This document shows, piece by piece, positions 1,341-38,827 of a stretch of 64,000 bases of DNA. The translations under genes and the position numbers were made by a program. The stretch is from a bacterium. GTDB taxonomy: Archaea; Nanobdellota; Nanobdellia; Pacearchaeales; GW2011-AR1. The notes beneath the pieces were generated by a model. It searched no databases. It was not told where the DNA came from and saw only the letters and a program-made list of their open reading frames with translations. Each line of letters opens with the position of its first letter. Within the stretch, counting starts at the first letter, position 1. The DNA is taken from the NCBI GenBank assembly GCA_036833455.1, contig DAITPU010000001.1, positions 116,397 to 180,396 of the forward strand, in the 5' to 3' direction.

Positions 1341-2788
1341 ATTCCAGTTGATCCTGCTGGCGGCTGCGGCTCTTTGATTTGCACTTAGACATGCAAGTTT
1401 TTCTAGTTTCATTAGAAATTGGATGGCGAACTGCTCAGTAACACGTAGCTAACCTACTCTTAGGTCAAGGATACCCTCGGGAAACTGAGGTTAATACTTG
1501 ATAAGAGACATACCCTGGAATGATTTGTCTCTAAAATTCGAGCCTAAGAATGGGGCTGCGGCGGATTAGGTTGTTGGCGGGGTAAATGCCCACCAAGCCA
1601 TTGATCCGTAAGGGCTCTTAGCGGAGAGGCCCTGAGAGGGAATCTGAGACACTATTCCCAGCCCTACGGGGTGCAGCAGTTAGGAATAATCTACAATGCG
1701 CGAAAGCGTGATAGTTCGAATCAGAGTGCGTTCCAACAGGAATGCTTTTGTGGAATCTAAAAAGTTCTACGAATAAGGACTGGGTAAGACTAGTGCCAGC
1801 CGCCGCGGTAATACTAGCGGTCCAAGTCGCAGCCATTTTTATTGGGTCTAAAACATCCGTAGCTTGCTTAGTAAGTTCCTTGTGAAATTCCATATCTCAA
1901 GTATGGAGCGGGCAGGGAGTACTGCTGTAGCTAGAGACTGGAAGACGTAACGAGTACGTTCTAAGTAGCGGTAAAATGTGTTAATCTAGGACGGACTAAC
2001 AATAGCGAAGGCACGTTACGAGGACAGTTCTGACAGTAAGGGATGAAAGCTAGGGGCGCAAAACGGATTAGATACCCGTGTAGTCCTAGCCCTAAACACT
2101 GCACACTAAACATCAGTACCTCTTCGAGAGGTATTGGTGCTGAAGGGAAGCCGAAGAGTGTGCTACCTGGGAAGTATAGTCGCAAGGCCGAAACTTAAAG
2201 GAATTGGCGGGGAGACACTACAACGAGTGACGCGTGCGGTTCAATCAGATTCTACACCGTGAACCTCACCAGGAGCGACAGCAGAATGAAGGTCAGTCTG
2301 AAGGGCTTACCTGACACGCTGAGAGGAGTTGCATGGCCAACGTAAGCCTGTGCCGTGAGGTGACCTGTTAAATCAGGTAACAGGCAAGACCCACATCCAT
2401 ATTTTTATTTAATCGATATGGAGATTGCCTTGGAAACAAGGATGAAAGCGTGGGCTACGTTAGGTGGTACAGCCTGAATCCCCTGGGCAACACGCGCGCG
2501 TCAATGGCGAATACAACGGGAAGCGACTCCGAAAGGAGAAGCCAATCTCTTAAAGTTCGTCTTAGTACAGATCGAGGATTGTAACTCATCCTCGTGACGC
2601 TGGAATTCGTAGTAATCGTTTGTTAACAACGAACGGTGAATATGTCACGGTCTCTTGCACACACTGCCCGTCAAATCAACCGAGTTTGGTTATGGTGAAA
2701 CCTTTAGAGGGAGAACCTTGATCAGACAAGGTAGGTTAAGTCGTCACAAGGTATCTGTAGGGGAACCTGCAGATGGATCACCTCCTTA
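1341..2788 (+). rRNA. rrs: 16S rRNA
   Basis: 5' ATTCCAGTTGATCCTGCTGGCGG. Internal GTGCCAGCCGCCGCGGTAATAC, AAACGGATTAGATACCC, AAACTTAAAGGAATTGGCGGGGGA, TGCACACACTGCCCGTCA. 3' GGATCACCTCCTTA. Confidence 0.9.
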
Positions 2789-2836
2789 ATTTAAAGACAG
2801 AAAATTTCTGCTTCTATATACTCATCTTATTATTTT

Positions 2837-2908
2837 GGGCCCGTTGTCCAATGGCTAAGATGCTTGCCTTGCACGCAGGAGATCCGTGTTCGATTCACGG
2901 CGGGTCCA
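2837..2908 (+). tRNA. tRNA-Ala (anticodon TGC) in the 16S-23S spacer; no encoded CCA
   Basis: Cloverleaf folds by eye. Anticodon loop CTTGCAC. G3:U70 wobble pair (Ala identity element). T-arm CCGTG/TTCGATT/CACGG. Confidence 0.85.
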
Positions 2909-2963
2909 TAAGACAACGAGCAAAATAAAATTCAAGAGAAAATAAAAATGGAAGGAACAGACG

Positions 2964-3224
2964 ATGCCACCAATAGAATGTACATTAACAGATATGGTAG
3001 ACGGAGCTCCATTAGTTATTTTACGTGCAGAGAAGATAGGAGAAAAGTATTGGGAAGTTAAAGAAGGAGTAATCAATAAAGGATGCTATTCACTATCTTT
3101 AGAAGAATTAAAAGATATGGCGAAAAAAAAATATTACAGATCATGCTCATATAAAAATGGGAAATTAAGGGTTCCTGAATCCAATTCAGGGATCTGCATT
3201 GAGAACTTATGTTCAATGAGATAA
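2964..3224 (+). CDS. 86-aa ORF (Cys-containing) embedded in the tRNA-Ala to 23S spacer; uncertain
   Basis: Uninterrupted ORF in an AT-rich spacer with a GGAAGGA SD-like motif 7-13 nt upstream of the ATG; no homology recognised. Confidence 0.25.
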   Translation: MPPIECTLTDMVDGAPLVILRAEKIGEKYWEVKEGVINKGCYSLSLEELKDMAKKKYYRSCSYKNGKLRVPESNSGICIENLCSMR

Positions 3225-3295
3225 GTAGTAGAGGAATCCCACTAGTTAATATTTTTAACTAGTAATATTTAGAAAATCACAATCTATTTATGCTA

Positions 3296-6070
<2,775 letters not shown>

Positions 6071-6184
6071 GTCACTAAAAGCCTCACATGTTATTTTCTA
6101 AATAACTTCCTCTACTACTTATCCTTTGTTTTTGTTAACCATTACCACAATAATTCTTATAAACTAAAATTCTTTTTTCAAATA

Positions 6185-14773: not shown

Positions 14774-15898
14774 ATGTTTATTTCTAATAAAAATATGAAT
14801 CTTTTCAAAAAAAAACCGAAACAAAAGGTCTTACTTGCAATGTCTGGAGGAGTCGATTCGTCTGTAGCTGCGCTACTTTTAAAAAAGAAAAGCTACGATG
14901 TTTACGGAGCATTCATGAAAAATTGGTCCGATACAAAAAACAAAATAACTGGTCAATGTGCATGGGTTGAAGAAAGAGAACACGCTATAAAAATAGCCAC
15001 AAAGCTTGGAATTCCCTTCGTAACTTTAGACTTTGAAAAAGAATACAAAAAATTAGTCATAGATGAAATGTTCAAAAAATACAAAAAAGGAATAACCCCA
15101 AATCCAGATATCGATTGCAATGAAAAAGTTAAATTCCCTTTATTGATAAGAGAAGCAAAAAAAATAGGAATAAACTTAATTGCAACAGGGCATTACGCAA
15201 GAATAAAAAAGAAAAAGGGAAAATACGAATTACACCGAGCAAAAGATGAATCAAAAGATCAATCTTACTTTCTTTACAGACAATCACAAGAAGATTTGAA
15301 ACATACAATTTTCCCCATAGGAAAATTATCCAAAAAGAAAGTTAGAAAAATCGCAAAAAAACACGGATTTCAAAATGCATATAAAAAAGGAACAGTTGGA
15401 ATTTGTTTTGTAGGAAAGATTAATCTTAAAGATTTTTTATCAAAAAAAATAAAGCAGAAAAAAGGAAAAATTTTTGATCCAGAAGGAAATATTATTGGTG
15501 AACACGACGGAATATATTATTATACAATTGGGCAAAGATTAGGACCAAGATATGGATTTGAAATTCAAAGACAAGATCCAAAAACAAAAAGAATGATTCG
15601 TTGGTATGTTGCAAAAAAAGATGTGAAAAAAAACACAATCATTGCAGCTCCCGAAGGACACAAAATTCTTTACAGAAAAAAAATAAAAATAAAAAATTTA
15701 CACTTAATAGATTTAAACAAAAATGAAATTCCAAAAAAAGTTTTAGTTAGAATAAGACAAGTCGGAGAACTAATGCCTGCGAATATGAAAGGGAATGAAG
15801 TGACTCTCAACAAATCAATAAATGGCATTTCAGAAGGTCAAGCAATAGTTTTATACAAAAAAACAAAATGTTTAGGTGGCGGAGTTATTAGCTTTTAA
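14774..15898 (+). CDS. mnmA: tRNA-specific 2-thiouridylase MnmA (bacterial-type)
   Basis: PP-loop SGGVDSSVAA, ATGHYAR, DxxKDQSYFL, conserved Cys pairs. Confidence 0.8.
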   Translation: MFISNKNMNLFKKKPKQKVLLAMSGGVDSSVAALLLKKKSYDVYGAFMKNWSDTKNKITGQCAWVEEREHAIKIATKLGIPFVTLDFEKEYKKLVIDEMFKKYKKGITPNPDIDCNEKVKFPLLIREAKKIGINLIATGHYARIKKKKGKYELHRAKDESKDQSYFLYRQSQEDLKHTIFPIGKLSKKKVRKIAKKHGFQNAYKKGTVGICFVGKINLKDFLSKKIKQKKGKIFDPEGNIIGEHDGIYYYTIGQRLGPRYGFEIQRQDPKTKRMIRWYVAKKDVKKNTIIAAPEGHKILYRKKIKIKNLHLIDLNKNEIPKKVLVRIRQVGELMPANMKGNEVTLNKSINGISEGQAIVLYKKTKCLGGGVISF

Positions 15899-16316
15899 TT
15901 ACAAAATTATTAAAATAAGATTAGATAGATTTATAAATTGCCCAAATGTATATTCCTTAATGAAAAATTTCGCTCCAGACATCTTTAGACAAAGACTGGT
16001 AATCGAAGGTATCTATTCTATTAAGCCTACTCCAAAAATATTAAAAGAATGTATGCAAGAATTATCTCAAAAATTAGGTATGAAAATTATATATGGTCCA
16101 ATAGTTAAAAATATTGCAGAGAAAATTAATCCAAAACACGGGGGGTATGAATGTGTTTTAATATGGGCTGAATCAGGAGCTTCAATTTACACATGGAAGA
16201 GAAACAACTTTTTTAGCATCGACATTTATACTTGTAGACCTTTCAAATCTGAAGATGCGGTTAAATTCATAAAAGAAAAGTTTCAAACTATCGAATTGGA
16301 CTTTAAAGATTTCTAA
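15876..16316 (+). CDS. speH: pyruvoyl-dependent S-adenosylmethionine decarboxylase-like proenzyme (SpeH/SpeD family). True start is probably the internal Met near 15958
   Basis: LIWAESGASIYTWKRNNFFSIDIYTC aligns with the SpeH LLAESHISIHTWPE...VDVFTCG processing/active-site region. Confidence 0.5.
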   Translation: MAELLAFNYKIIKIRLDRFINCPNVYSLMKNFAPDIFRQRLVIEGIYSIKPTPKILKECMQELSQKLGMKIIYGPIVKNIAEKINPKHGGYECVLIWAESGASIYTWKRNNFFSIDIYTCRPFKSEDAVKFIKEKFQTIELDFKDF

Positions 16317-19019: not shown

Positions 19020-19135
19020 AAACAGAAGAAAACAAGAAAGGATTAATAAAATTTACCTCTTGACATTAAAAAATATTCCCTGAAGTATACAAAGATTTAA
19101 AAATATCTATTAGATAATTAATAAGACAAAAAAAC

Positions 19136-20203
19136 ATGGTTCAAGATTTAAATTCAAAATTGGAAGAAGAACCTCCTTCTATTAGAAATTTTAAAAGACT
19201 ATCCATTGGTCTTTCTTTCAATGCTAAAAAGAATAATAGTTCTAAATTTGGAGATAAATATGCCGAATTTGACGACATAAAAACTATCCATTCAATAAAA
19301 TCTGCAATTGAATCTGCAGGACACCAAGTTATTCTTTTAGAAGCAAATAAAACTTTTATTAAAAAGGTAACAAGAAAAAAAATTGATTTAGTTTTTAATA
19401 TAGCAGAGGGTATAGAAGGAAAATCTAGAGAGTCTCATGTTCCATCAATTTTAGAAATGTTACAAATCCCCTACACTGGTTCAGGAGTGCTTACTCAAGC
19501 TTTAACATTAGATAAAAGAAGAACAAAAGAAATTTTAAGTTATCATAAAATTCCCAATGCAAAATTTCAATTAATTGACAAAAACAAATTTATTTTAAAC
19601 AAAAATTTAAAATTCCCTTTAATAGTCAAACCGAATTCAGAGGGATCAAGTAAAGGGATAACAAATAACTCTTTGGTCCAGAATAAAAAAGAATTGAATA
19701 AACAGGTAAAAAAAATTCTTAATGATTATTCTCAAGAAGCTCTAATTGAAGAGTATTTACCTGGAAGAGAATTTACTGTGGGGATGATAGGGAACCAAAA
19801 ACCTAAAGTTTTGCCTATAGTTGAAATAAATTTTAACCATTTACCTCCAGAAATTCATAAATTTGATTCATATGAGGCAAAATGGATTTACGATAATCCA
19901 AACTCTAATGAAGATCCATTGATTTGCCCTGCAAAAATAAATAAAAAACTTAAAAAAGAAATAGAAAATATATGCCTTCAAACATACAAAATATTGGATT
20001 GTTTAGATTTTTGCAGAATTGATTTAAGATTAGACTGTAAAGGAAAACCAAATATTATTGAAGTTAATGCGCTCCCAGGATTGATTCCAGATCCAAAAGA
20101 AAATTCAAGATTCCCCAGATCCTGTTTTACTCAGGGACTAACCTACAACCAAATTATTTTATCTATTTTAGATAGTGCTATAAAGAGGTATAATCTAAAA
20201 TGA
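19136..20203 (+). CDS. D-alanine--D-alanine ligase-family ATP-grasp enzyme (paralog A)
   Basis: N-domain FNIAEGIEGKSRESHVPSILEMLQIPYTGSGVL. ATP-grasp FPLIVKP, EEYLPGREFTVG, CRIDLRLD, IEVNALPG. Confidence 0.7.
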   Translation: MVQDLNSKLEEEPPSIRNFKRLSIGLSFNAKKNNSSKFGDKYAEFDDIKTIHSIKSAIESAGHQVILLEANKTFIKKVTRKKIDLVFNIAEGIEGKSRESHVPSILEMLQIPYTGSGVLTQALTLDKRRTKEILSYHKIPNAKFQLIDKNKFILNKNLKFPLIVKPNSEGSSKGITNNSLVQNKKELNKQVKKILNDYSQEALIEEYLPGREFTVGMIGNQKPKVLPIVEINFNHLPPEIHKFDSYEAKWIYDNPNSNEDPLICPAKINKKLKKEIENICLQTYKILDCLDFCRIDLRLDCKGKPNIIEVNALPGLIPDPKENSRFPRSCFTQGLTYNQIILSILDSAIKRYNLK

Positions 20204-21189
20204 AAATTGGATTAATTCATTGTGAAGGGGATTTTAAAAAATCTTCTCCTTTTGATTATGAAGGAAGGAAAAATATAGGTGATGCAGTGGAAATTGCATT
20301 AAATAACTTAAAAATGAATTATATAAAAATTCCAGCTAACAAAAAAATGTTTAAAAGTTTAGAAAAAAACAGAGTAGATTTAATATTTAATTCAGCCGAC
20401 GAGGGATTTAATATGAACACTCACTTAGAAGCTCAAATTCCTGCTTTTTTAGATATGTTAAATATTCCTTATACTGGATCTAATTATCTTACATTGGGTT
20501 TGTGTAATGATAAAATAAAAACAAAAGAGATACTTAAAGCAAATGGGTTACCTACTCCTAATTTTTTGGTAATAAAGAATAAAATTTCAGAAAATTTTGA
20601 AATTAAAGGAATAAAATTTCCCTTGATAATTAAACCTTCTAAAGAAGATGGAAGTATAGGAATAAAGATTGATTCTGTAGTTAATACAAAAAAAGAGATG
20701 ATAAAAAAAATAAATGAAGTTTTAGAAAAGTATAATCAACCTGTTTTAGTAGAAGAATTTATAGAAGGCAGAGAGATATACATAGGAATTTTAGGCAGAG
20801 ATAAAATAGAAGTTTTGCCCCCTACTGAAATAAAATTTAACCTTCCTAAAGGTTACAAAAATTTTTTGCCCTACGAGGCAAAATGGGAAGAGAATAGTTC
20901 ATACTATAAAGGAACTATTGCAACTTGCCCTGCAAAAATAGAGCAAAAATTATTTTCAAAATTAAAGGATGCTGCGATTAAATCATATAAAATTTTTAAT
21001 GTGAGGGATTATGGAAGGATAGATTTTAGAATTGATAAAAAAGGAAAAATTTTTATTTTAGAAGTGAATCCAAATCCAGATTTATCTAGAGAATCTGGAA
21101 TTGCTTTAATGGCAAAAAGAAGAGGAATGGAATTTGAAGATTTAATTAAAAAAATAATAAGTTATTCTAAACAAGATGAAATCAATTGA
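20200..21189 (+). CDS. D-alanine--D-alanine ligase-family ATP-grasp enzyme (paralog B)
   Basis: FNSADEGFNMNTHLEAQIPAFLDMLNIPYTGS, FPLIIKPS, EEFIEGREIYIG, GRIDFRID, LEVNPNPD. 4-nt overlap with the upstream gene. Confidence 0.75.
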   Translation: MKIGLIHCEGDFKKSSPFDYEGRKNIGDAVEIALNNLKMNYIKIPANKKMFKSLEKNRVDLIFNSADEGFNMNTHLEAQIPAFLDMLNIPYTGSNYLTLGLCNDKIKTKEILKANGLPTPNFLVIKNKISENFEIKGIKFPLIIKPSKEDGSIGIKIDSVVNTKKEMIKKINEVLEKYNQPVLVEEFIEGREIYIGILGRDKIEVLPPTEIKFNLPKGYKNFLPYEAKWEENSSYYKGTIATCPAKIEQKLFSKLKDAAIKSYKIFNVRDYGRIDFRIDKKGKIFILEVNPNPDLSRESGIALMAKRRGMEFEDLIKKIISYSKQDEIN

Positions 21190-21718
21190 AGGAGAAAATT
21201 TAATTTTAAAACAAGTTGAAGAAAAAGATGCTGAATACATTTCTAAATGGTTTTCAGATAAGGAGCAAAATAAATACATGAGTACTTTTGTTAGGACTAG
21301 AGATCATCCTATTGAAAAAATAAGAGAAGAAATTATAAATTCTAATGAAAATTTTGAAAGATTGTTTATGATTTATCTAAAAGGATATTGTAATCCAATA
21401 GGCCATTGCGGTATAGATGATTTAGACTTACACGATAAAAGAGGAGAAATTTTTTTTATAATTGGAGAAAAAGAATTTCAGGGAAAAGGTTACGGAAAAG
21501 AAACTGCAAAACTTCTTTTAAAACTTGGTTTTGAAAAATTAGGATTAAATACCCTTTTTGCAACTGCAACTTTAGAAAATGTATCTTCAATTAAAACATT
21601 AGAAAAAGTTGGATTTAAATATATTGGGATAAGAAGAGAATATAATTTTATAAATGATAAATATTTGGATGAAATTTTATTCGATATAACAAGGAAGGAT
21701 TACGAAAAAAATGAATAA
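21176..21718 (+). CDS. GNAT-family N-acetyltransferase
   Basis: GNAT motif A region IGEKEFQGKGYGKETAKLLLKLGFEKLGLNTLFA; overlaps both neighbours. Confidence 0.65.
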   Translation: MKSIEGENLILKQVEEKDAEYISKWFSDKEQNKYMSTFVRTRDHPIEKIREEIINSNENFERLFMIYLKGYCNPIGHCGIDDLDLHDKRGEIFFIIGEKEFQGKGYGKETAKLLLKLGFEKLGLNTLFATATLENVSSIKTLEKVGFKYIGIRREYNFINDKYLDEILFDITRKDYEKNE

Positions 21719-22805
21719 AAATAATATGAATAACAAGAAAAATAGAGATTTGAATTATTTGCATTTACCAAGAGCTATTTCCGATATAGATTCTCTAAAA
21801 ATTTCATTATCTAAAAAAGATATAGAATTAACAAAAGAAGAAATAGAAAATATAAAAAAAGTTATAGAAAAATATCCAATGAGAATTAATTCTCATTATC
21901 TTTCTCTAATTAAAGAAAAAAATGATCCCATCTGGAACCAATGTATTCCTAAAATTGAAGAAATAGAAGAAACTGGGGGTGAAGAAGATCCCTTAAAAGA
22001 AGAGGGAGAAGTCCCGTTTTTAACTCATAGATATCCAGATCGATGTTTATTAATTGTATCTAACACTTGTGCAATGTATTGCAGATTCTGCACTAGAAAA
22101 AGAAAAGTTGGTGAAGCTATCAAAAATCCTTCAATTGAGGATATAAGAAAAGCAATTAAGTATATAAAAAACCACAAAGAAATAAGGGACGTAATAATTT
22201 CAGGAGGAGATCCTTTCCTTCTAGGAGATAAAACTATTGAAAAAATATTAGTTGAATTAAGACAAATTCCTCACATAGAAATGATTAGAATTGGAACAAG
22301 GGTACCCTGCGTAATGCCTGAAAGAATTACTCATGAATTATGTAGTATTCTAAAAAAATATAATAAACGGCCTATTTTATATCTTAATACTCACTTTGAA
22401 CACCCAAATGAAATAACTGAGCAAGCTAGGCTTGCTTGCGAGAGATTGATTGATTCGGGCATACAATTAGGAAATCAAAGTATAGTCTTAAAAGGGGTTA
22501 ATGATGATCCAAAAATTTTCAAAGAATTGAATCAAAAACTTCTTGCAATTGGGGTAAAGCCATATTATATTTACCAACCAGATTTAGTTAAAGGAACTTC
22601 TCATTTCAGAAATAAGGTGGAAAAAGGCCTTAAAATAATTAAAGGGTTGAGGGGACACACAAGTGGAATGGCCGTACCTCATTTTGTTATAGATTCTCCT
22701 GGAGGAGGTGGAAAAATACCCCTTCTCCCAAAATACTCCACTATAAATAAAGATGGATCAGTTGATATGATTAATTATCAAGGAAAGAAGTTTAAGTATT
22801 TTTGA
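21711..22805 (+). CDS. kamA: lysine 2,3-aminomutase (KamA/AblA/EpmB family radical SAM)
   Basis: CAMYCRFCTRKRK (CxxxCxxC), ISGGDPF, PYYIYQPDLVKGTSHFR, typical KamA length. Confidence 0.8.
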   Translation: MNKNNMNNKKNRDLNYLHLPRAISDIDSLKISLSKKDIELTKEEIENIKKVIEKYPMRINSHYLSLIKEKNDPIWNQCIPKIEEIEETGGEEDPLKEEGEVPFLTHRYPDRCLLIVSNTCAMYCRFCTRKRKVGEAIKNPSIEDIRKAIKYIKNHKEIRDVIISGGDPFLLGDKTIEKILVELRQIPHIEMIRIGTRVPCVMPERITHELCSILKKYNKRPILYLNTHFEHPNEITEQARLACERLIDSGIQLGNQSIVLKGVNDDPKIFKELNQKLLAIGVKPYYIYQPDLVKGTSHFRNKVEKGLKIIKGLRGHTSGMAVPHFVIDSPGGGGKIPLLPKYSTINKDGSVDMINYQGKKFKYF

Positions 22806-23502
22806 ACTCTTTTCTTAAATATCTATTTAAGAGAAAAGGGTACTTCCTACATTTATGTTCTATTATACTTGATGAATGGTGTGCTTCAGGATATTTTAAT
22901 CCTTTCAACATTAAATTTCTTTCATGGACCTCATGAAGTAAAACAAACTTTCTTTCTCTCTTTGATAAATCATCATCTAACCATATTTCTCCTTTTGGAA
23001 CAAAATTATAAACTTTATCATGACCTCCCTCAGTAAAGTCAATAAAATAAAAATCACGAACAAGTTCTCCATTAACAACCCAAACTTTAAGATTATCAGA
23101 GCTATATTTTTTTAATAATTTTTTATGAATTCCTTTTAAAAGATTTTTTCTATAATTTTTTTTATACTTTAAAAAATAAGAAGATTTCATTCTTTCTTTT
23201 TGCTCTGAAGAATCTGCTTTTATTATTGCTTTTTTATAATTCATTCCTCTTGACATTAAAAAATATTCAGTAATTAAATGATTTATATAAAAAGTGAATT
23301 CCCCTGGAGAAAATTCTTTATCTAACCAAAATTCTTTTTTTGGAATAAACTTAAATCTAAAATGTTGGCCAAAATTAGTAAATTCTTCATTTAGATTTTT
23401 TCTTACATAAGATCCATCCACTATAAAAACTTCAAATTCTCCAACAGAGATTAATTTAGAAAGATAAGGTTTTCTCATTATTCCTTCTCCAAAATTTCGC
23501 AT
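22792..23502 (-). CDS. hypothetical protein with internal tandem duplication of about 75 aa; second copy carries HEVHE (HExxH)
   Basis: Repeat 1 FEVFIVDGSYVR...FIPKKEFWLD...INHLITEYFLM. Repeat 2 LKVWVVNGELVR...FVPKGEIWLD...LLHEVHERNLM. Confidence 0.4.
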   Translation of the reverse strand: MRNFGEGIMRKPYLSKLISVGEFEVFIVDGSYVRKNLNEEFTNFGQHFRFKFIPKKEFWLDKEFSPGEFTFYINHLITEYFLMSRGMNYKKAIIKADSSEQKERMKSSYFLKYKKNYRKNLLKGIHKKLLKKYSSDNLKVWVVNGELVRDFYFIDFTEGGHDKVYNFVPKGEIWLDDDLSKRERKFVLLHEVHERNLMLKGLKYPEAHHSSSIIEHKCRKYPFLLNRYLRKEFKNT

Positions 23503-25783: not shown

Positions 25784-27094
25784 TTAAGGACTTAATCTCC
25801 TCATTTTCCTAGGGAAAGCAATTGCATCCTTAATATCTTTTAAACCACATATCCAAGAAATAACTCTCTCAACACCCATTCCAAATCCTCCATGAGGAAT
25901 AGAACCATACCTTCTAGAATCAAAATAAAATTCATAATTATCAAGTTTCTCTCCTTCTCTCTTTAAATTTTCTTTTATAACTTCTATATTTTCTTCTCTT
26001 TGGGAGGCACCAAATAATTCTCCATAACCTTCAGGACCTATAACATCAAACCCTTGAACTGTTTTTTCCTTTTCTGACTTACTCCTTGTTTCTGGAGATT
26101 CTTTCATATAAAACGCTTTAACTGCCTTAGGATAATCTGTAACAATTATAGGTGTATCAAAAAGTTCACTTAATTTATCTTCTTCAACAGTTCTCAAATC
26201 TTTTCCCCACGGAATTTCAAATTTAAAATTTTTCTTCAATAAATTTAATGCTTCTGTATAAGTTATTTTAGGAAAATCTTTTTTAATAGTTGCCTTCAAA
26301 GTTTTAGTATCTCTTTCCAAAATTTTTAATTCTTCCTCATTATTCTCCAAAACTTTTTTTACTATATGCTTCATTAAACCTTCTGCATATTCCTGGAGAT
26401 TTTCAAAAGTGGACCAAGCAACTTCCATTTCAGCGTGCCAATATTCAGTTAGGTGTCTTGAAGTATTTGATTTTTCTGCTCTAAATGAAGGAGCTATACA
26501 ATAAATTTTTTCCAAAGCAAAAATAGCAGTTTCTGCATGGAGTTGCCAGGTTTGTGCCAGGTAAGCTTTTTTATCAAAATATTTAACTTCAAAAACAGAT
26601 GAACCTGATTCTCCTGCAGCGCTTAAAATTGTTGGACTTTGAAATTCGTAAAAACCCTTATCTCTAAAATATTCATGAATTGCTCCAAAAACACTATGCC
26701 TAATCTTCATAATTGCAGTCATCTTCCGACTTCTCAACCACAAATGTCTTCTATCCCCTAAAAGCTCTTCGTTCAAATCTTTATTTATAGGATAATCTTC
26801 AGCAATATGAACAATATTTATTTTACTAACTTCAATTTCATAACCAGTTGGAGCTCTCTTATCTTCCTTTATCTCTCCTTCCAATTCAACAGAACTTTCA
26901 ATTTTTAATTTATTGATTTCGTTCCATTGATTTTCAAAATTTTCTCTTTTCAAAATACATTGAATAATATTTGTAGAATCTCTTAAAACTAAAAAATACA
27001 TTTTATTAGAACCCCGTTCTCTGTAAATCCAACCCCGCACAGCTACTTTCCCTTTGCCTTTTTTCATCGCATCAGAAATTGAAATAAACTTCAT
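25784..27094 (-). CDS. asnS: asparaginyl-tRNA synthetase
   Basis: N-terminal OB domain, class II motifs FRAEKSNTSRHLTEYWHAEME, GFGMGVERV, QTWQLHAE. Confidence 0.8.
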   Translation of the reverse strand: MKFISISDAMKKGKGKVAVRGWIYRERGSNKMYFLVLRDSTNIIQCILKRENFENQWNEINKLKIESSVELEGEIKEDKRAPTGYEIEVSKINIVHIAEDYPINKDLNEELLGDRRHLWLRSRKMTAIMKIRHSVFGAIHEYFRDKGFYEFQSPTILSAAGESGSSVFEVKYFDKKAYLAQTWQLHAETAIFALEKIYCIAPSFRAEKSNTSRHLTEYWHAEMEVAWSTFENLQEYAEGLMKHIVKKVLENNEEELKILERDTKTLKATIKKDFPKITYTEALNLLKKNFKFEIPWGKDLRTVEEDKLSELFDTPIIVTDYPKAVKAFYMKESPETRSKSEKEKTVQGFDVIGPEGYGELFGASQREENIEVIKENLKREGEKLDNYEFYFDSRRYGSIPHGGFGMGVERVISWICGLKDIKDAIAFPRKMRRLSP

Positions 27095-27891: not shown

Positions 27892-29172
27892 CTATGGAGT
27901 GAGTCTTCTTCGATCTCTAGGAAAGAGAGTAACTTCTCTTATATTTTCAACACCCAATATGGCTTGAGAGAGACGTTCTAACCCGATACTCCATCCTGAG
28001 TGCATTGGAGCCCCATATCTGAAAGCATCTACGTACCAACTAAAATCTTTTGGATTTAAACCTTTATTTTTAAGTTGCTTAATTAAAATTTCTGCAACAT
28101 GTACTCTTTGGCCTCCTGAACTTATTTCCAATCCCCCATAAAGAGCATCAAAACCTCCGGAAACTTTTTCATTTTTTGGCCAGATATAAAATGGTTTTAT
28201 TGAAGAGGGCCATTCATAAGTAAAAACTATTGAATTCGGAAATAATTCGCAAAGTTTCTTTTCTGCAGAAGGATCAAAATCTTCCCCTTCTTTCATTTTA
28301 AAACCATTTTTATTTAAAATTTCAAGCGCTTCAGAATATTTCAAATATTTAGATTTAGGTACCTTCAAATCTAATTTTAAAATCTTTAATTCTTTCTCAC
28401 AATCTTTTAAAATTTTTTTAACAATAAATTGAACGCTCTTTTCCAAATAATTCATAACTTGCATATCATCGCAAAAACCTATTTCTATATCCATCTGCCT
28501 AATTTCATTTATATGTCTCGTAGTATCATGTTTTTCTGCTCTCCAAATAGGACCAGTTGAGAAAACTTTTTCTAATGAAATAGCCATTAATTGTTTATAC
28601 AGTTGAGGAGATTGCGCCAAATATGCATCTTTATCAAAATATTTTATTTTAAATAAGTCTGTTCCTCCCTCTGTAGAAGTTGCTATAATTCCGGGCGGTT
28701 GAATTTCCATAAACCCTTCTTTATAAAAAAATTCCCTAAATCCATTTATAATTGTAGATTGTATTCTAAATCTAGCAGCAACCTCTGGTTTTCTTAAATC
28801 TAAAGAACGATTGTCTAATCGATTCATTAAATCTGTATTAGTAGTTTTTTCATTTACATGAATAGGAAGTTTTTCTGCTTTATTCAAAATTTTTAACTCA
28901 TGAACAAAAACTTCTAAATTGGATAAAACAAAATCAGCTTTGACTTTTGCTTCTTTAACTTCCCCCACAATTTCAACTACACTCTCTAAACTTAAATTTT
29001 CAATTTCTTTCAAAAGTTCTTCTTTAACAACACATTGAACAATTCCTGTATTATCTCTCAATAGAATAAACTTTAATTTTGACAATCCTCTAATTTCATG
29101 GATCCATCCTTTAATTAAAACTTTTTTTTCTGGTCTTAATTTTTCAATATAACTTCTCTCCATATCAATCAA
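27892..29172 (-). CDS. aspS: aspartyl-tRNA synthetase (archaeal/eukaryotic type)
   Basis: QSPQLYKQLM, WRAEKHDTTRHINEIRQMDIE, GLERL motifs; N-terminal OB domain. Confidence 0.85.
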   Translation of the reverse strand: MIDMERSYIEKLRPEKKVLIKGWIHEIRGLSKLKFILLRDNTGIVQCVVKEELLKEIENLSLESVVEIVGEVKEAKVKADFVLSNLEVFVHELKILNKAEKLPIHVNEKTTNTDLMNRLDNRSLDLRKPEVAARFRIQSTIINGFREFFYKEGFMEIQPPGIIATSTEGGTDLFKIKYFDKDAYLAQSPQLYKQLMAISLEKVFSTGPIWRAEKHDTTRHINEIRQMDIEIGFCDDMQVMNYLEKSVQFIVKKILKDCEKELKILKLDLKVPKSKYLKYSEALEILNKNGFKMKEGEDFDPSAEKKLCELFPNSIVFTYEWPSSIKPFYIWPKNEKVSGGFDALYGGLEISSGGQRVHVAEILIKQLKNKGLNPKDFSWYVDAFRYGAPMHSGWSIGLERLSQAILGVENIREVTLFPRDRRRLTP

Positions 29173-37834: not shown

Positions 37835-38827
37835 TTAAATTTCACCTAATTTTGTTTTAGCAACAATCAAAGGAAAAACAAGCGTTGCCTCTGAATATAG
37901 TTTAATCATTTTAGCCTCAGGCAAAATCTTCCCCCAACTAACTGCTTCATCAGGCAATGCTCCCGAATCACTTCCATCAAATTCCTGCGCAGTATTTATA
38001 TAAACCGCATAATTTGCCCCATTTCTAAACATATTTGCATTGCAAATGCTATGTTTAACTGCTCCACTTCCCAAAACTATAATTCCTGTCTTTTCTTTCC
38101 CAAGACTAGAGTTATTCATATCCAAAATATCTTTAGATATGTCGATTAGAAAATCTGGATGATTTGCCTTAAAGAAGTAGATCATATCTCCTAAACTTCC
38201 ATCTAAAATTGAGGGACAATAAACCTGAATTCCATTTTTCCAAGCCCAATAATAAATTGAATTTTTATCGTTTATTTTTTCTCCCATTTTTAATATTAAT
38301 TCACTTCCACTGAGAATCTTTCCCGTTTTTTTTTGCCTAGTGTAAAATTCTTCTAAGATGGGCATAATAAACTCTTCAAAATCACAATACCTAGAATTGG
38401 GAATTAGAATATTTCCTGCACGATTAATTCCTTTTTTCCTAAGTAAAGCTCCTTTATCATTAAATTCTCCTAATTTAAAATCTCCTAAACATTTTATTAT
38501 GTCTTCTTCGATCCCCCCTGCACTTGAAACTAAAAAATTTACTTTCTTATTTTCCGCTAAAAACCTTATTATCTCTCTTAACCCAGAAGTTACAATATTT
38601 GAAGTATAACCTAAATAAATAAATGCCTTTTCGTCTATCATTTCATTTATAATTTCCGTTGCAATTGAAAAATTCTTTGCTTGAATTCCAGTTGAAGAAT
38701 AACTATCTAAGATTTTTTCATAATTTATTCCTTTATTAAAATCATAACCTTTAATAGAAATTCCTTCTGCTTCAGAACTCCTTCTCAAAACGTTTTTTCT
38801 TGCTTCTTTTTCCATTAAATAAGGCAA
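37835..38827 (-). CDS. dys: deoxyhypusine synthase
   Basis: YTSNIVTSGLREIIRFL, SSAGGIEEDIIK, C-terminal FDGSDSGALPDEAVSWGKI. Confidence 0.85.
   Translation of the reverse strand: MPYLMEKEARKNVLRRSSEAEGISIKGYDFNKGINYEKILDSYSSTGIQAKNFSIATEIINEMIDEKAFIYLGYTSNIVTSGLREIIRFLAENKKVNFLVSSAGGIEEDIIKCLGDFKLGEFNDKGALLRKKGINRAGNILIPNSRYCDFEEFIMPILEEFYTRQKKTGKILSGSELILKMGEKINDKNSIYYWAWKNGIQVYCPSILDGSLGDMIYFFKANHPDFLIDISKDILDMNNSSLGKEKTGIIVLGSGAVKHSICNANMFRNGANYAVYINTAQEFDGSDSGALPDEAVSWGKILPEAKMIKLYSEATLVFPLIVAKTKLGEI

What the first reader, a model, noticed from the sequence alone, without database searches (positions are those of the whole stretch)
19136..22805. Overlapping operon of two Ddl-family ATP-grasp ligases, a GNAT and a lysine 2,3-aminomutase: candidate beta-lysine-derived metabolite pathway beyond ablA/ablB
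Four co-directional genes overlap at each junction (4, 14 and 8 nt), which indicates translational coupling. KamA (CAMYCRFC radical-SAM motif) with a GNAT recalls the methanogen ablA/ablB route to N-epsilon-acetyl-beta-lysine, but here the GNAT precedes KamA. In addition, two paralogous D-Ala--D-Ala-ligase-family enzymes (both carry IPYTGS, FPLI[VI]KP, EE[YF]xxGRE, RIDxRxD, EVN) sit immediately upstream. This is an archaeon with no evident murein, so a cell-wall Ddl role is unlikely. By analogy with PylC (a Ddl homologue that ligates the product of the radical-SAM lysine mutase PylB to lysine), these ligases may attach beta-lysine to another amino acid or amine. The product would then be an acetylated beta-lysyl dipeptide/amide compatible solute or signalling molecule. 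I do not recognise this four-gene combination as a described pathway.
Basis: partly seen in the sequence, partly recalled or inferred. Interest (0 to 1): 0.7.

Follow-up and report, generated by a model that had tools for sequence, protein, structure and literature searches.

The report
Orphan beta-lysine ligase/acetyltransferase operon
Four tightly coupled genes (two D-Ala-D-Ala-ligase-like enzymes, an acetyltransferase and a lysine 2,3-aminomutase) form a module that recurs in many anaerobic bacteria and archaea, has no description I could find, and probably builds a small acetylated beta-lysine-containing amide related to polyamine chemistry.

Summary
Four co-directional ORFs at 19136-22805 overlap by 4, 14 and 8 nt and encode two Ddl-fold ATP-grasp paralogues (L1, L2), a GNAT and a KamA-family radical-SAM enzyme.

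- **Not a DPANN oddity.** The same order, L1-L2-GNAT-KamA, occurs in 45 of 63 sufficiently long loci from other species. Most are bacteria (Ignavibacteria, Bacteroidota, Desulfuromonadales, Acidobacteriota and others); some are archaea.
- **Fusions.** KamA-L1 and L2-GNAT fusion proteins exist.
- **KamA** keeps every lysine-, PLP- and cluster-binding residue of Clostridium lysine 2,3-aminomutase.
- **Ligases.** Both keep all catalytic residues of DdlB but differ at the D-Ala-site positions and score below curated Ddl cut-offs.
- **GNAT** is not AblB.
- **New lead.** In other genomes KamA is absent from the locus. There L1-L2-GNAT follows a homospermidine operon (SpeY/SpeB/ADC) or lies near a PLP decarboxylase.

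I read this as an ATP-grasp/GNAT module that joins amino acids to a diamine-type compound, here beta-lysine. The product is unknown, and I found no paper describing the module. Novelty: new variant of a known kind. Interest about 0.65.

The parts
19097..19106 (+). TATA-like box (TTTAAAAATA), a candidate archaeal promoter for the operon, 30 nt before the L1 ATG. The 116-nt intergenic region is shared with the divergent TYW3 gene.
   Evidence: Sequence read directly. This is inference only; no archaeal promoter tool was available.
19136..20203 (+). L1: Ddl-fold ATP-grasp ligase and the most conserved member of the module (41-56% identical to bacterial orthologues).
   Evidence: Pfam Dala_Dala_lig_C, E 2e-38. 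Best NCBIfam Ddl model 199 bits against a cut-off of 243. AlphaFold pLDDT 87; the top Foldseek PDB hits are Ddl structures, TM 0.72-0.85. Keeps K97, K144, E180, E187, K215, R255, D257, E270 and N272 of DdlB. Differs at H63->E, E68->R, Y216->W and L282->R. KamA-L1 fusion proteins exist (P0011, P0066, L008).
20200..21189 (+). L2: a second Ddl-fold ATP-grasp ligase, paralogue of L1 (41% identical) and always next to or fused with the GNAT.
   Evidence: Pfam Dala_Dala_lig_C, E 1e-40. NCBIfam 183 bits against a cut-off of 243. pLDDT 93.8; top Foldseek hits are Ddl structures. Catalytic residues are intact. Differs from DdlB at H63->E, S150->G/A, Y216->W, G276->D and L282->G. L2-GNAT fusions occur in Promethearchaeum syntrophicum, Lokiarchaeum ossiferum and metagenome loci L091 and L094.
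21176..21718 (+). GNAT N-acetyltransferase of the Acetyltransf_3 type.
   Evidence: Pfam Acetyltransf_3, E 3e-22. The best NCBIfam hit is spermidine N1-acetyltransferase at only 42 bits (cut-off 218), and there is no hit to AblB TIGR03827. It is 60% identical to the GNAT that follows an L2 paralogue in sister contig L106, and 27-39% identical to the GNAT domains fused to L2 in Asgard archaea.
21711..22805 (+). KamA-family radical-SAM/PLP enzyme, predicted L-lysine 2,3-aminomutase (makes beta-lysine), with a short C-terminus.
   Evidence: E 6e-107 to PDB 2A5H. TIGR00238 KamA family 311 bits (passes); AblA 431 bits against 525; Glu-2,3-aminomutase 416 against 650; EpmB 243 against 369. C125, C129, C132, R134, D293, D330 and K337 of the Clostridium enzyme are conserved here and in all 61 cassette KamAs. 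Only 29 residues follow K337, against 79 in LAM.

Best explanation
The four genes are one operon and one copy of a widespread, apparently undescribed biosynthetic module.

Core and feeders. The core is two paralogous, catalytically intact Ddl-fold ATP-grasp ligases (L1, L2) plus a GNAT that sits next to, or is fused with, L2. Different genomes combine this core with different enzymes that supply a diamine-type building block. These are KamA (beta-lysine, here and in about 70% of sampled loci), the SpeY/SpeB/arginine-decarboxylase homospermidine operon, or a PLP-dependent Orn/Lys/DAP-type decarboxylase.

Proposed mechanism in this window:
1. KamA isomerises L-lysine to beta-lysine (3,6-diaminohexanoate, which carries a 1,4-diamine motif like putrescine).
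2. L1 and L2 each activate a carboxylate as an acyl-phosphate and form an amide bond. One or two amide bonds thus join beta-lysine to one or two further amino acids. Precedents are the two ATP-grasp ligases of the phevamine pathway, which build Phe-Val-amidinospermidine, and PylC, which joins methylornithine to lysine.
3. The GNAT acetylates a remaining free amino group.

The product would be a small cytoplasmic N-acetylated beta-lysine pseudo-peptide or amide. Its likeliest role is an organic cation or compatible solute related to polyamines.

Shown: gene structure, family membership, intact catalytic residues, lysine-type KamA, conserved synteny, fusions, alternative partner modules.
Inferred: which ligase takes beta-lysine, the partner amino acids, the order of steps, the acetylation site, and the physiological role.
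For: - Operon structure with 4, 14 and 8 nt overlaps.
- Conserved order L1-L2-GNAT-KamA in 45 of 63 loci with at least 4.2 kb downstream of L1. The loci span many bacterial phyla and several archaeal lineages and are flanked by unrelated housekeeping genes.
- KamA-L1 fusions and L2-GNAT fusions.
- All 61 cassette KamAs keep the Fe-S cysteines, R134, D293, D330 and K337.
- Both ligases keep every ATP, Mg and catalytic residue of DdlB. They carry family-invariant changes at positions that, to my knowledge, line the D-Ala sites. New acidic residues are E at position 63 in both and D at 276 in L2. New basic residues are R68 and K/R285, plus R282 in archaeal L1.
- Six bacterial loci have SpeY(DS)-SpeB-PvlArgDC directly upstream of L1-L2-GNAT and no KamA in the locus. 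SpeY/SpeB/ADC is an experimentally shown homospermidine pathway (PMC13625781).
- Promethearchaeum has DS and PvlArgDC next to L1 and L2-GNAT.
- The syntenic sister contig L106 has L2'-GNAT-L1-L2 plus a PLP decarboxylase but no KamA.
- DPANN variants add MurL-like proteins, further ATP-grasp ligases and a LysA/FslC-like decarboxylase.
- Precedent for two ATP-grasp ligases acylating a polyamine in sequence: phevamine (PMC6187163).
Against: - No product has been observed and nothing here identifies the partner amino acids.
- L1 from KamA-linked and polyamine-linked loci is one orthologous family: 56-62% identity and identical residues at most of the 20 compared positions, including the main specificity-candidate ones. 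L1 may therefore use a substrate common to both contexts rather than beta-lysine itself.
- 13 of 63 loci have no KamA within reach. The two cultured Asgard genomes have none adjacent. Whether KamA lies elsewhere in those genomes was not testable.
- L1 keeps E15, S150, K215, R255 and S281 of DdlB, so a D-Ala-like small substrate cannot be excluded.
- The GNAT subfamily differs between archaeal (Acetyltransf_3) and bacterial (Acetyltransf_7/1) cassettes.
- No riboswitch or regulator hinting at an osmotic role was found in 24 bacterial loci.
Confidence: 0.5

Rival explanations
1. [quoted passage not shown] The two ligases do an unrelated job, such as making a dipeptide, and merely share the operon.
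For: KamA is lysine-type and scores best against AblA (431 bits). A GNAT next to KamA is the AblAB pattern. KamA/GNAT pairs in Desulfuromonadales relatives have been annotated ablA/ablB (PMC3543383; PMC2821294).
Against: The GNAT is not AblB: the window GNAT has no TIGR03827 hit, and the bacterial cassette GNAT scores 19 bits against a cut-off of 205. The GNAT is fused to L2, not to KamA, and KamA is fused to L1. L2-GNAT persists in loci without KamA. Canonical kamA and ablB are 1326 and 870 bp (PMC11337218), against 1095 and 543 bp here.
Confidence: 0.12
2. L1-L2-GNAT is a polyamine-modifying module whose real substrates are ordinary polyamines or diamines of the cell. Beta-lysine is not joined by the ligases but is, at most, acetylated or used elsewhere.
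For: L1 is the same orthologous family in KamA-linked and homospermidine-linked loci, with matching residues at most compared positions. SpeY/SpeB/ADC-L1-L2-GNAT operons exist. The best, though weak, NCBIfam hit of the window GNAT is spermidine N1-acetyltransferase. An AdoMet_dc-family gene and a DHS gene lie in the window.
Against: KamA-L1 fusion proteins and the 8-nt coupled KamA in this operon argue that beta-lysine feeds the ligases. Minimal archaeal clusters contain only KamA, L1 and a MurL-like protein, with no polyamine gene.
Confidence: 0.2
3. The enzymes modify a protein after translation. One example is attaching beta-lysine to a lysine or a C-terminus of a translation factor or ribosomal protein, as an EpmA-independent analogue of EF-P beta-lysylation. 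Another is a RimK/RimI-like system.
For: KamA-family EpmB and deoxyhypusine synthase are, to my knowledge, the two known routes for modifying the conserved lysine of EF-P/IF5A. Homologues of both turn up beside L1-L2 in different genomes. There are weak TTL and RimK Pfam hits on the ligases and weak RimI/RimJ-type hits on the GNATs.
Against: KamA is below the EpmB cut-off and closer to AblA/LAM. The archaeon has its own DHS, presumably for aIF5A. Bacterial DS homologues in such clusters (SpeY) are shown to make homospermidine rather than modify proteins (PMC13625781). Some Desulfuromonadales carry a separate efp-linked KamA as well as a GNAT-linked one (PMC2821294). The characterised members of the Ddl branch that I know of act on small molecules (my knowledge).
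Confidence: 0.08
4. L1 and L2 are genuine D-Ala-D-Ala (or D-Ala-D-X) ligases serving a murein-like wall, acquired by transfer from bacteria.
For: Ddl is the closest solved family by both sequence and fold. L1 keeps E15, S150, K215, R255 and S281. Databases name many homologues 'D-alanine--D-alanine ligase'.
Against: Both score below every curated Ddl cut-off. Family-invariant changes sit at H63, Y216 and L282, and additionally at S150 and G276 in L2. In bacteria the module lies among unrelated housekeeping genes with no Mur ligase adjacent. These bacteria presumably carry the module in addition to their own ddl, which is an inference. The ligases are fused with KamA or the GNAT. No Mur genes were seen in any archaeal locus examined.
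Confidence: 0.03

Closest known systems
AblA/AblB pathway to N-epsilon-acetyl-beta-lysine (methanogens; yodP-kamA in Bacillus, from my own knowledge)
   Same: A lysine-type 2,3-aminomutase is encoded next to a GNAT, and beta-lysine is the committed intermediate.
   Different: The GNAT is not AblB (no TIGR03827 match) and is about 100 aa shorter than canonical AblB. KamA is below the AblA cut-off and lacks most of the C-terminal domain. Two ATP-grasp ligases are integral parts, with KamA-L1 and L2-GNAT fusions. The core occurs without KamA in other genomes.
D-alanine--D-alanine ligase (DdlB, VanA) family
   Same: Same fold (Foldseek TM 0.7-0.86) and 24-28% identity. All ATP, Mg and catalytic residues are conserved, so the acyl-phosphate amide-ligase chemistry is expected.
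   Different: Both score below the curated family cut-offs. The positions I know as lining the D-Ala sites are changed (H63E and Y216W in both; L282R and E68R in L1; S150G/A, G276D and L282G in L2). There is no murein gene context, and the genes sit in operons with KamA or polyamine genes.
Phevamine pathway HsvA/HsvB/HsvC of Pseudomonas syringae (PMC6187163)
   Same: A small operon in which one enzyme prepares an amine building block and two ATP-grasp ligases then add amino acids one after the other by amide bonds. This is the closest mechanistic precedent for L1 plus L2.
   Different: The amine there is amidinospermidine made by an amidinotransferase. That pathway has no GNAT and no radical-SAM enzyme, and it is a narrowly distributed virulence factor. 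Homology of HsvB/C to L1/L2 was not tested here.
PylB/PylC/PylD (pyrrolysine biosynthesis)
   Same: A radical-SAM lysine mutase supplies an unusual diamino acid, which an ATP-grasp ligase joins to another amino acid.
   Different: KamA and PylB are different radical-SAM families. L1 and L2 are far closer to Ddl than to anything else solved; no molecule named PylC appears among the profile hits at E < 0.01. There is no PylD.
SpeY/SpeB/ADC homospermidine pathway (PMC13625781)
   Same: It is physically linked with L1-L2-GNAT in six bacterial loci and in Promethearchaeum. Like KamA, it supplies a compound with 1,4-diaminobutane units.
   Different: It is absent from this window's operon. The published work does not mention the ligases or the GNAT.
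Ngg, the GNAT/ATP-grasp fusion that makes N-acetylglutaminylglutamine amide (from my own knowledge; not tested here)
   Same: An acetyltransferase fused with an ATP-grasp ligase makes an N-acetylated dipeptide compatible solute. This parallels the L2-GNAT fusions.
   Different: It belongs to a different ATP-grasp branch (RimK/cyanophycin-like), has the opposite domain order, and involves no beta-amino acid.

Membership tests
D-alanine--D-alanine ligase (EC 6.3.2.4) | Ddl-type three-domain ATP-grasp fold | tested here: met
   AlphaFold models have pLDDT 87 and 94. The top Foldseek PDB hits are all Ddl, TM 0.72-0.86.
D-alanine--D-alanine ligase (EC 6.3.2.4) | ATP, Mg and catalytic residues (DdlB K97, K144, E180, E187, K215, R255, D257, E270, N272) | tested here: met
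   These residues are conserved in 82 L1 and 64 L2 sequences, including the window copies.
D-alanine--D-alanine ligase (EC 6.3.2.4) | Score at or above the curated family cut-off | tested here: not met
   The best model, NF002378, gives 199 bits (L1) and 183 bits (L2) against a cut-off of 243. All equivalog models score far below their cut-offs.
D-alanine--D-alanine ligase (EC 6.3.2.4) | D-Ala site residues H63, S150, Y216, S281, L282 (roles from my own knowledge) | tested here: not met
   H63->E and Y216->W in both families. L282->C or R in L1 and ->G in L2. S150->A/G and G276->D in L2.
D-alanine--D-alanine ligase (EC 6.3.2.4) | Genomic association with murein synthesis genes | tested here: not met
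   Neighbours are KamA, GNAT, polyamine genes or unrelated housekeeping genes. No Mur ligase was seen in any locus examined.
Lysine 2,3-aminomutase (KamA/LAM) | CxxxCxxC cluster motif, PLP lysine (K337), and substrate residues R134, D293, D330 | tested here: met
   All are conserved in the window protein and in 61 of 61 cassette KamAs. The roles of the residues come from my knowledge of the 2A5H structure and of the glutamate 2,3-aminomutase comparison.
Lysine 2,3-aminomutase (KamA/LAM) | Curated family score | tested here: inconclusive
   The KamA-family model TIGR00238 passes (311 bits against 199). The AblA equivalog TIGR03820 does not (431 against 525). The Glu- and Arg-aminomutase equivalogs are also below their cut-offs.
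Lysine 2,3-aminomutase (KamA/LAM) | C-terminal multimerisation domain of clostridial LAM | tested here: not met
   Only 29 residues follow K337, against 79 in LAM. LAM_C is matched at profile positions 1-49 of 127.
EpmB (EF-P beta-lysylation) | EpmB equivalog score and an EpmA/EF-P partner | tested here: not met
   TIGR03821 gives 243 bits against a cut-off of 369. The organism is an archaeon with a deoxyhypusine synthase in the window. No EpmA-like gene was seen next to the module in any locus.
AblA/AblB N-epsilon-acetyl-beta-lysine pathway | AblB-type beta-lysine acetyltransferase (TIGR03827) | tested here: not met
   The window GNAT has no hit. The bacterial cassette GNAT scores 19 bits against a cut-off of 205.
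PylBCD-like | PylC-type ligase | tested here: not met
   The L1 family profile searched against all PDB sequences returns Ddl at E 4e-42. No entry named PylC appears at E < 0.01. That PylC structures are in the PDB is from memory.
Aminoacyl-polyamine ATP-grasp assembly (phevamine-like) | Two ATP-grasp ligases acting in sequence on an amine made by an operon partner | not testable with these tools
   The gene content fits: two intact ligases plus an amine-supplying enzyme. Enzyme assays are needed.

The most novel reading that the evidence does not exclude
L1-L2-GNAT with its interchangeable amine feeders (KamA, SpeY/SpeB/ADC, PLP decarboxylase) makes a so far unknown, widespread family of acetylated aminoacyl-diamine or beta-lysine pseudo-peptides. 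Carriers range from Ignavibacteria and Desulfuromonadales to DPANN, Bathyarchaeia and cultured Asgard archaea. This would be a new class of polyamine-like cytoplasmic metabolites assembled by Ddl-derived ligases.
Probability: 0.4. Interest if true: 0.8.

Novelty: new variant of a known kind. Interest (0 to 1): 0.65.

Why it matters
If the reading is right, a large group of proteins now named 'D-alanine--D-alanine ligase' in archaeal and bacterial genomes is misnamed. That includes copies in Asgard and DPANN genomes, where such names invite speculation about murein. These proteins would instead belong to an unstudied pathway that links beta-lysine and polyamine metabolism. The module is compact (four genes) and present in cultured organisms: Stygiobacter electus, Promethearchaeum syntrophicum and Lokiarchaeum ossiferum. 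It is also found in an Ignavibacterium album MAG. Its product could therefore be identified directly. That would add a metabolite class to the short list of beta-amino-acid and polyamine derivatives known in anaerobes, and a new substrate range to the Ddl enzyme family.

Tried and rejected
- **Glutamate 2,3-aminomutase reading of KamA.** The near-equal NCBIfam scores raised it. Rejected because D293 and D330 are kept in all 61 cassette KamAs.
- **Riboswitch or regulatory RNA upstream of the module** (Na+, c-di-AMP or lysine riboswitches would have pointed to osmoprotection). None was found at Rfam gathering scores in 24 bacterial loci or in the window.
- **Literature.** Ten searches combined beta-lysine, aminomutase, ATP-grasp, Ddl, polyamine, homospermidine, Asgard/DPANN and MurL. 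No paper describing the module was found. The Triado-Margarit paper on green sulfur bacteria is not held.
- **Extra conserved neighbours in bacterial loci.** The recurrent flanking families are housekeeping genes (RecG, GpsA, PlsY, IspD, DnaG, QueA, sigma factor) and reflect the taxonomy of the sample, not the module.
- **Metagenome scan with the window GNAT.** Only 2 of 15 loci were module-linked; both were L2-GNAT fusions, and the rest were unrelated GNATs.
- **Structure prediction of L1 and L2.** It confirmed the Ddl fold, but the tools give no coordinates, so pocket geometry could not be examined.
- **One ligase as a degenerate, non-catalytic subunit.** Rejected because both keep all catalytic residues.

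Full report
**Observation.** The junctions overlap by 4 nt (ATGA), 14 nt and 8 nt, and purine-rich stretches precede the L2 and KamA starts. The operon is bounded upstream by a 116-nt intergenic region shared with a divergent TYW3/Taw3 gene. That region contains a TATA-like TTTAAAAATA 30 nt before the L1 ATG. Downstream it is bounded by a convergent 236-aa ORF that overlaps the KamA stop. GC content (25-30%) matches the rest of the window. The window is archaeal, carrying archaeal SSU and LSU rRNA. Identical contigs occur in three public sequencing runs.

**Families.** L1 and L2 match Pfam Dala_Dala_lig_C (E 2e-38 and 1e-40), the GNAT matches Acetyltransf_3, and KamA matches Radical_SAM plus LAM_C.
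- Against NCBIfam, both ligases hit only Ddl-type models, and all hits fall below the curated cut-offs (199 and 183 bits against 243).
- The GNAT has only weak hits. The best is spermidine N1-acetyltransferase at 42 bits against a cut-off of 218, and there is no hit to AblB TIGR03827.
- KamA passes the KamA-family model. It falls below the equivalog cut-offs for AblA (431 against 525), glutamate 2,3-aminomutase (416 against 650), arginine 2,3-aminomutase and EpmB (243 against 369).
- Ddl structures are the closest solved relatives of both ligases by sequence and by fold. The AlphaFold models have pLDDT 87 and 94, and Foldseek TM scores to Ddl are 0.72-0.86 at 24-27% identity.
- L1 and L2 are paralogues: 41% identity, and hhalign probability 100% on the family profiles.

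**KamA substrate.** I aligned 61 module-linked KamAs with the Clostridium subterminale enzyme (PDB 2A5H; sequence taken from the alignment). All keep C125, C129 and C132, R134, D293, D330 and the PLP lysine K337. To my knowledge D293 and D330 hold the epsilon-ammonium of lysine and are replaced in glutamate 2,3-aminomutase. The enzyme is therefore best read as a lysine 2,3-aminomutase. The window protein has only 29 residues after K337, against 79 in LAM, so it lacks most of the C-terminal domain.

**Ligase active sites.** I aligned 82 L1 and 64 L2 sequences with E. coli DdlB.
- Both families keep K97, K144, E180, E187, K215, R255, D257, E270 and N272, so both should be active acyl-phosphate ligases.
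- At positions that, to my knowledge, line the two D-Ala sites, they carry family-wide changes. H63->E and Y216->W occur in both.
- L1 additionally has E68->R, L282->C (bacteria) or R (most archaea, including the window) and M285->K/R.
- L2 additionally has S150->A/G, G276->D, S281->A/T/S (the window copy keeps S), L282->G and M285->R in most members; the window copy has L there.
- The extra acidic and basic groups fit substrates with more charged groups than D-alanine. This is inference only, because I could not inspect the model pockets.

**Recurrence.** L1 has close homologues (52-63% identity) in Aenigmarchaeota, Woesearchaeota, Nanoarchaeota, Altiarchaeales, Micrarchaeota, Thermoplasmatota, Lokiarchaeum ossiferum and Promethearchaeum syntrophicum.
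The 80 best loci are mostly bacterial: Ignavibacteria, Bacteroidota, Chlorobi, Desulfuromonadales/Geobacteraceae, Acidobacteriota/Aminicenantes, Gemmatimonadota, Planctomycetota, Firmicutes and a CPR genome, at 41-56% identity.
- Of the 63 loci with at least 4.2 kb downstream of L1, 53 have L2 adjacent, 50 have a roughly 160-aa GNAT, 46 have KamA downstream, and 45 have the full order L1-L2-GNAT-KamA.
- The flanking genes are unrelated housekeeping genes, so the four genes form a self-contained module.
- The bacterial GNAT is of the Acetyltransf_7/1 type and is also not AblB.
But the module is not an archaeal speciality.

**Fusions.** KamA-L1 fusion proteins exist: P0011 and P0066 (Radical_SAM + LAM_C + Dala_Dala_lig_C) and a Methanosarcinales locus, L008. 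L2-GNAT fusions occur in Promethearchaeum syntrophicum (521 aa), Lokiarchaeum ossiferum (553 aa) and two metagenome contigs. Their GNAT domains are detectably related to the window's free-standing GNAT (27-39% identity for the two Asgard fusions). The two metagenome fusions were recovered by searching with the GNAT itself (41% and 33% identity). L2 immediately precedes the GNAT in every arrangement seen. These fusions pair KamA with L1 and L2 with the GNAT, which is the strongest evidence that all four proteins act in one pathway.

**Alternative partners, the main new lead.**
- In six bacterial loci (L027, L031, L038, L041, L045, L071), L1-L2(-GNAT) lies directly downstream of, and co-directional with, an arginase-family gene and a pyruvoyl arginine decarboxylase gene. 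A deoxyhypusine-synthase homologue precedes these in the four loci that extend far enough upstream. The GNAT is followed in some loci by a methyltransferase and in others by a second GNAT. No KamA lies in those loci. That trio is the SpeY/SpeB/ADC route to homospermidine shown experimentally in PMC13625781. The paper does not mention the ligases.
- Promethearchaeum has DS and PvlArgDC next to its L1/L2-GNAT pair.
- The closest relative of the window contig (L106) shares the TYW3 ... MBL-DHH neighbourhood, with L1 63%, L2 65% and GNAT 60% identical. It carries L2'-GNAT-L1-L2 and a LysA-like PLP decarboxylase nearby, but no KamA at that site.
- DPANN variants are also found. One is L1-L2, a MurL-like protein, a LysA/FslC-like PLP decarboxylase and then KamA; the Nanoarchaeota loci add extra ATP-grasp ligases. 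The other is the minimal KamA, L1 and one or two MurL-like proteins. MurL is an ATP-dependent epimerase of a C-terminal L-Glu in a peptide (PMC5808125).
- L1 from KamA-linked and polyamine-linked loci is one orthologous family. Identity is 56-62%, and the residues match at most of the compared positions, including the main specificity candidates. L2 differs more; for example, the E15 equivalent is lost in the polyamine-linked copies.

**Interpretation.** The constant part is L1 + L2 + GNAT. The variable part is an enzyme that supplies a compound with a 1,4-diamine motif: beta-lysine from KamA, homospermidine from SpeY/SpeB/ADC, or a decarboxylation product. This fits an assembly in which ATP-grasp ligases form amide bonds between amino-acid carboxylates and such an amine, and the GNAT caps a free amine. 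A direct precedent is the phevamine operon. There an amidinotransferase prepares amidinospermidine, and two ATP-grasp ligases add Val and then Phe (PMC6187163). PylB/PylC and, from memory, the Ngg GNAT/ATP-grasp fusion of the NAGGN pathway are further chemical parallels.

For this window I therefore propose three steps. Lysine is converted to beta-lysine by KamA. L1 and L2 form one or two amide bonds involving beta-lysine. The GNAT then N-acetylates the product. The KamA-L1 fusions and the KamA-L1-MurL-like minimal clusters suggest that L1 takes beta-lysine as the acyl donor and an alpha-amino acid as the acceptor. But the sameness of L1 in KamA-free operons speaks against strict beta-lysine specificity, so I leave the assignment open. 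The role (compatible solute, polyamine-like cation or something else) is inferred only. No riboswitch or regulator that would indicate an osmotic response was found.

**Rivals.**
- *AblAB-like route to acetyl-beta-lysine, with bystander ligases.* The fusion pattern and the non-AblB GNAT make this unlikely.
- *Protein modification of the EF-P/aIF5A kind.* It is intriguing that KamA and DS homologues both appear next to L1-L2. Against it: the KamA score, the DHS already present in the window, the demonstrated small-molecule role of SpeY, and the separate efp-linked KamA reported in some Desulfuromonadales (PMC2821294).
- *A cell-wall Ddl role.* Contradicted by the sub-threshold scores, the changed D-Ala-site residues, the gene context and the fusions.

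**Known or new.** Ten literature searches found no paper that links beta-lysine or KamA, or homospermidine genes, with these ATP-grasp ligases. Published annotations of related loci stop at 'ablA/ablB' (PMC3543383). All enzyme families and the type of chemistry are known. The module, its breadth, its swap of amine feeders and its product are not described. I rate it a new variant of a known kind, with interest about 0.65. It is a compact pathway that can be tested directly, is present in cultured organisms including two Asgard archaea, and currently sits behind a misleading 'D-alanine--D-alanine ligase' annotation.

Noticed in passing
window 15876-16316 (+) and 37835-38827 (-): A small AdoMet_dc-family protein (PF02675) lies 2.8 kb upstream of the operon, and a deoxyhypusine synthase (PF01916, 352 bits) lies 15 kb downstream. 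Polyamine and hypusine genes are therefore present in this genome. Whether the AdoMet_dc homologue is a true AdoMetDC or a neofunctionalised Arg/Orn decarboxylase is open.
   Followed up: partly
window 22792-23502 (-): A convergent 236-aa ORF with no Pfam hit overlaps the KamA 3' end by 14 nt. A 65% identical ORF sits at the same position in sister contig L106, which lacks KamA, so it is probably not part of the module.
   Followed up: partly
L106 2390-8054 (Logan SRR24236060): This is the closest relative of the window contig, with the same TYW3 ... MBL-DHH neighbourhood. It has L2'-GNAT-L1-L2 and a LysA-like PLP decarboxylase but no KamA at this site, which shows a recent swap of the amine-supplying gene.
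   Followed up: partly
proteins P0173, P0158, P0170, P0203, P0243 (KamA homologues, 511-578 aa): These carry an insertion of about 200 aa, with no Pfam hit, between the radical-SAM domain and LAM_C. They come from Nanoarchaeota, Halobacteriota and Syntrophoarchaeum. The nature of the insertion (an intein or an extra domain) is unknown.
   Followed up: no
L006 11116-12474; L089 8100-9473; L090 9087-10421; L107 7041-9850: MurL-like proteins of about 450 aa (weak NF041275 / PF26298 matches) lie directly after KamA-L1 or L1-L2 in DPANN-type archaeal contigs, and are duplicated in tandem in L107. They suggest epimerisation of a C-terminal residue of the ligase product.
   Followed up: partly
L047 4526-5755; L019 3094-4308 and 4435-5727: Further ATP-grasp ligases (ATP-grasp_4, one with an L-amino-acid-ligase C-terminal domain) lie inside Nanoarchaeota versions of the cluster. 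This hints at longer peptide products in those lineages.
   Followed up: no
window 1341-6098: A complete archaeal rRNA operon: SSU 1341-2786, a tRNA in the spacer at 2837-2908, and LSU 3276-6098. It could be used to place the organism taxonomically.
   Followed up: no
window 25784-27094 (-) and 27892-29172 (-): Two paralogous class II Asx-type aminoacyl-tRNA synthetase genes (tRNA_anti-codon + tRNA-synt_2) lie close together. In the identical contig L001, GatD and a GatB_N-domain gene (probably GatE) lie just beyond them.
   Followed up: no
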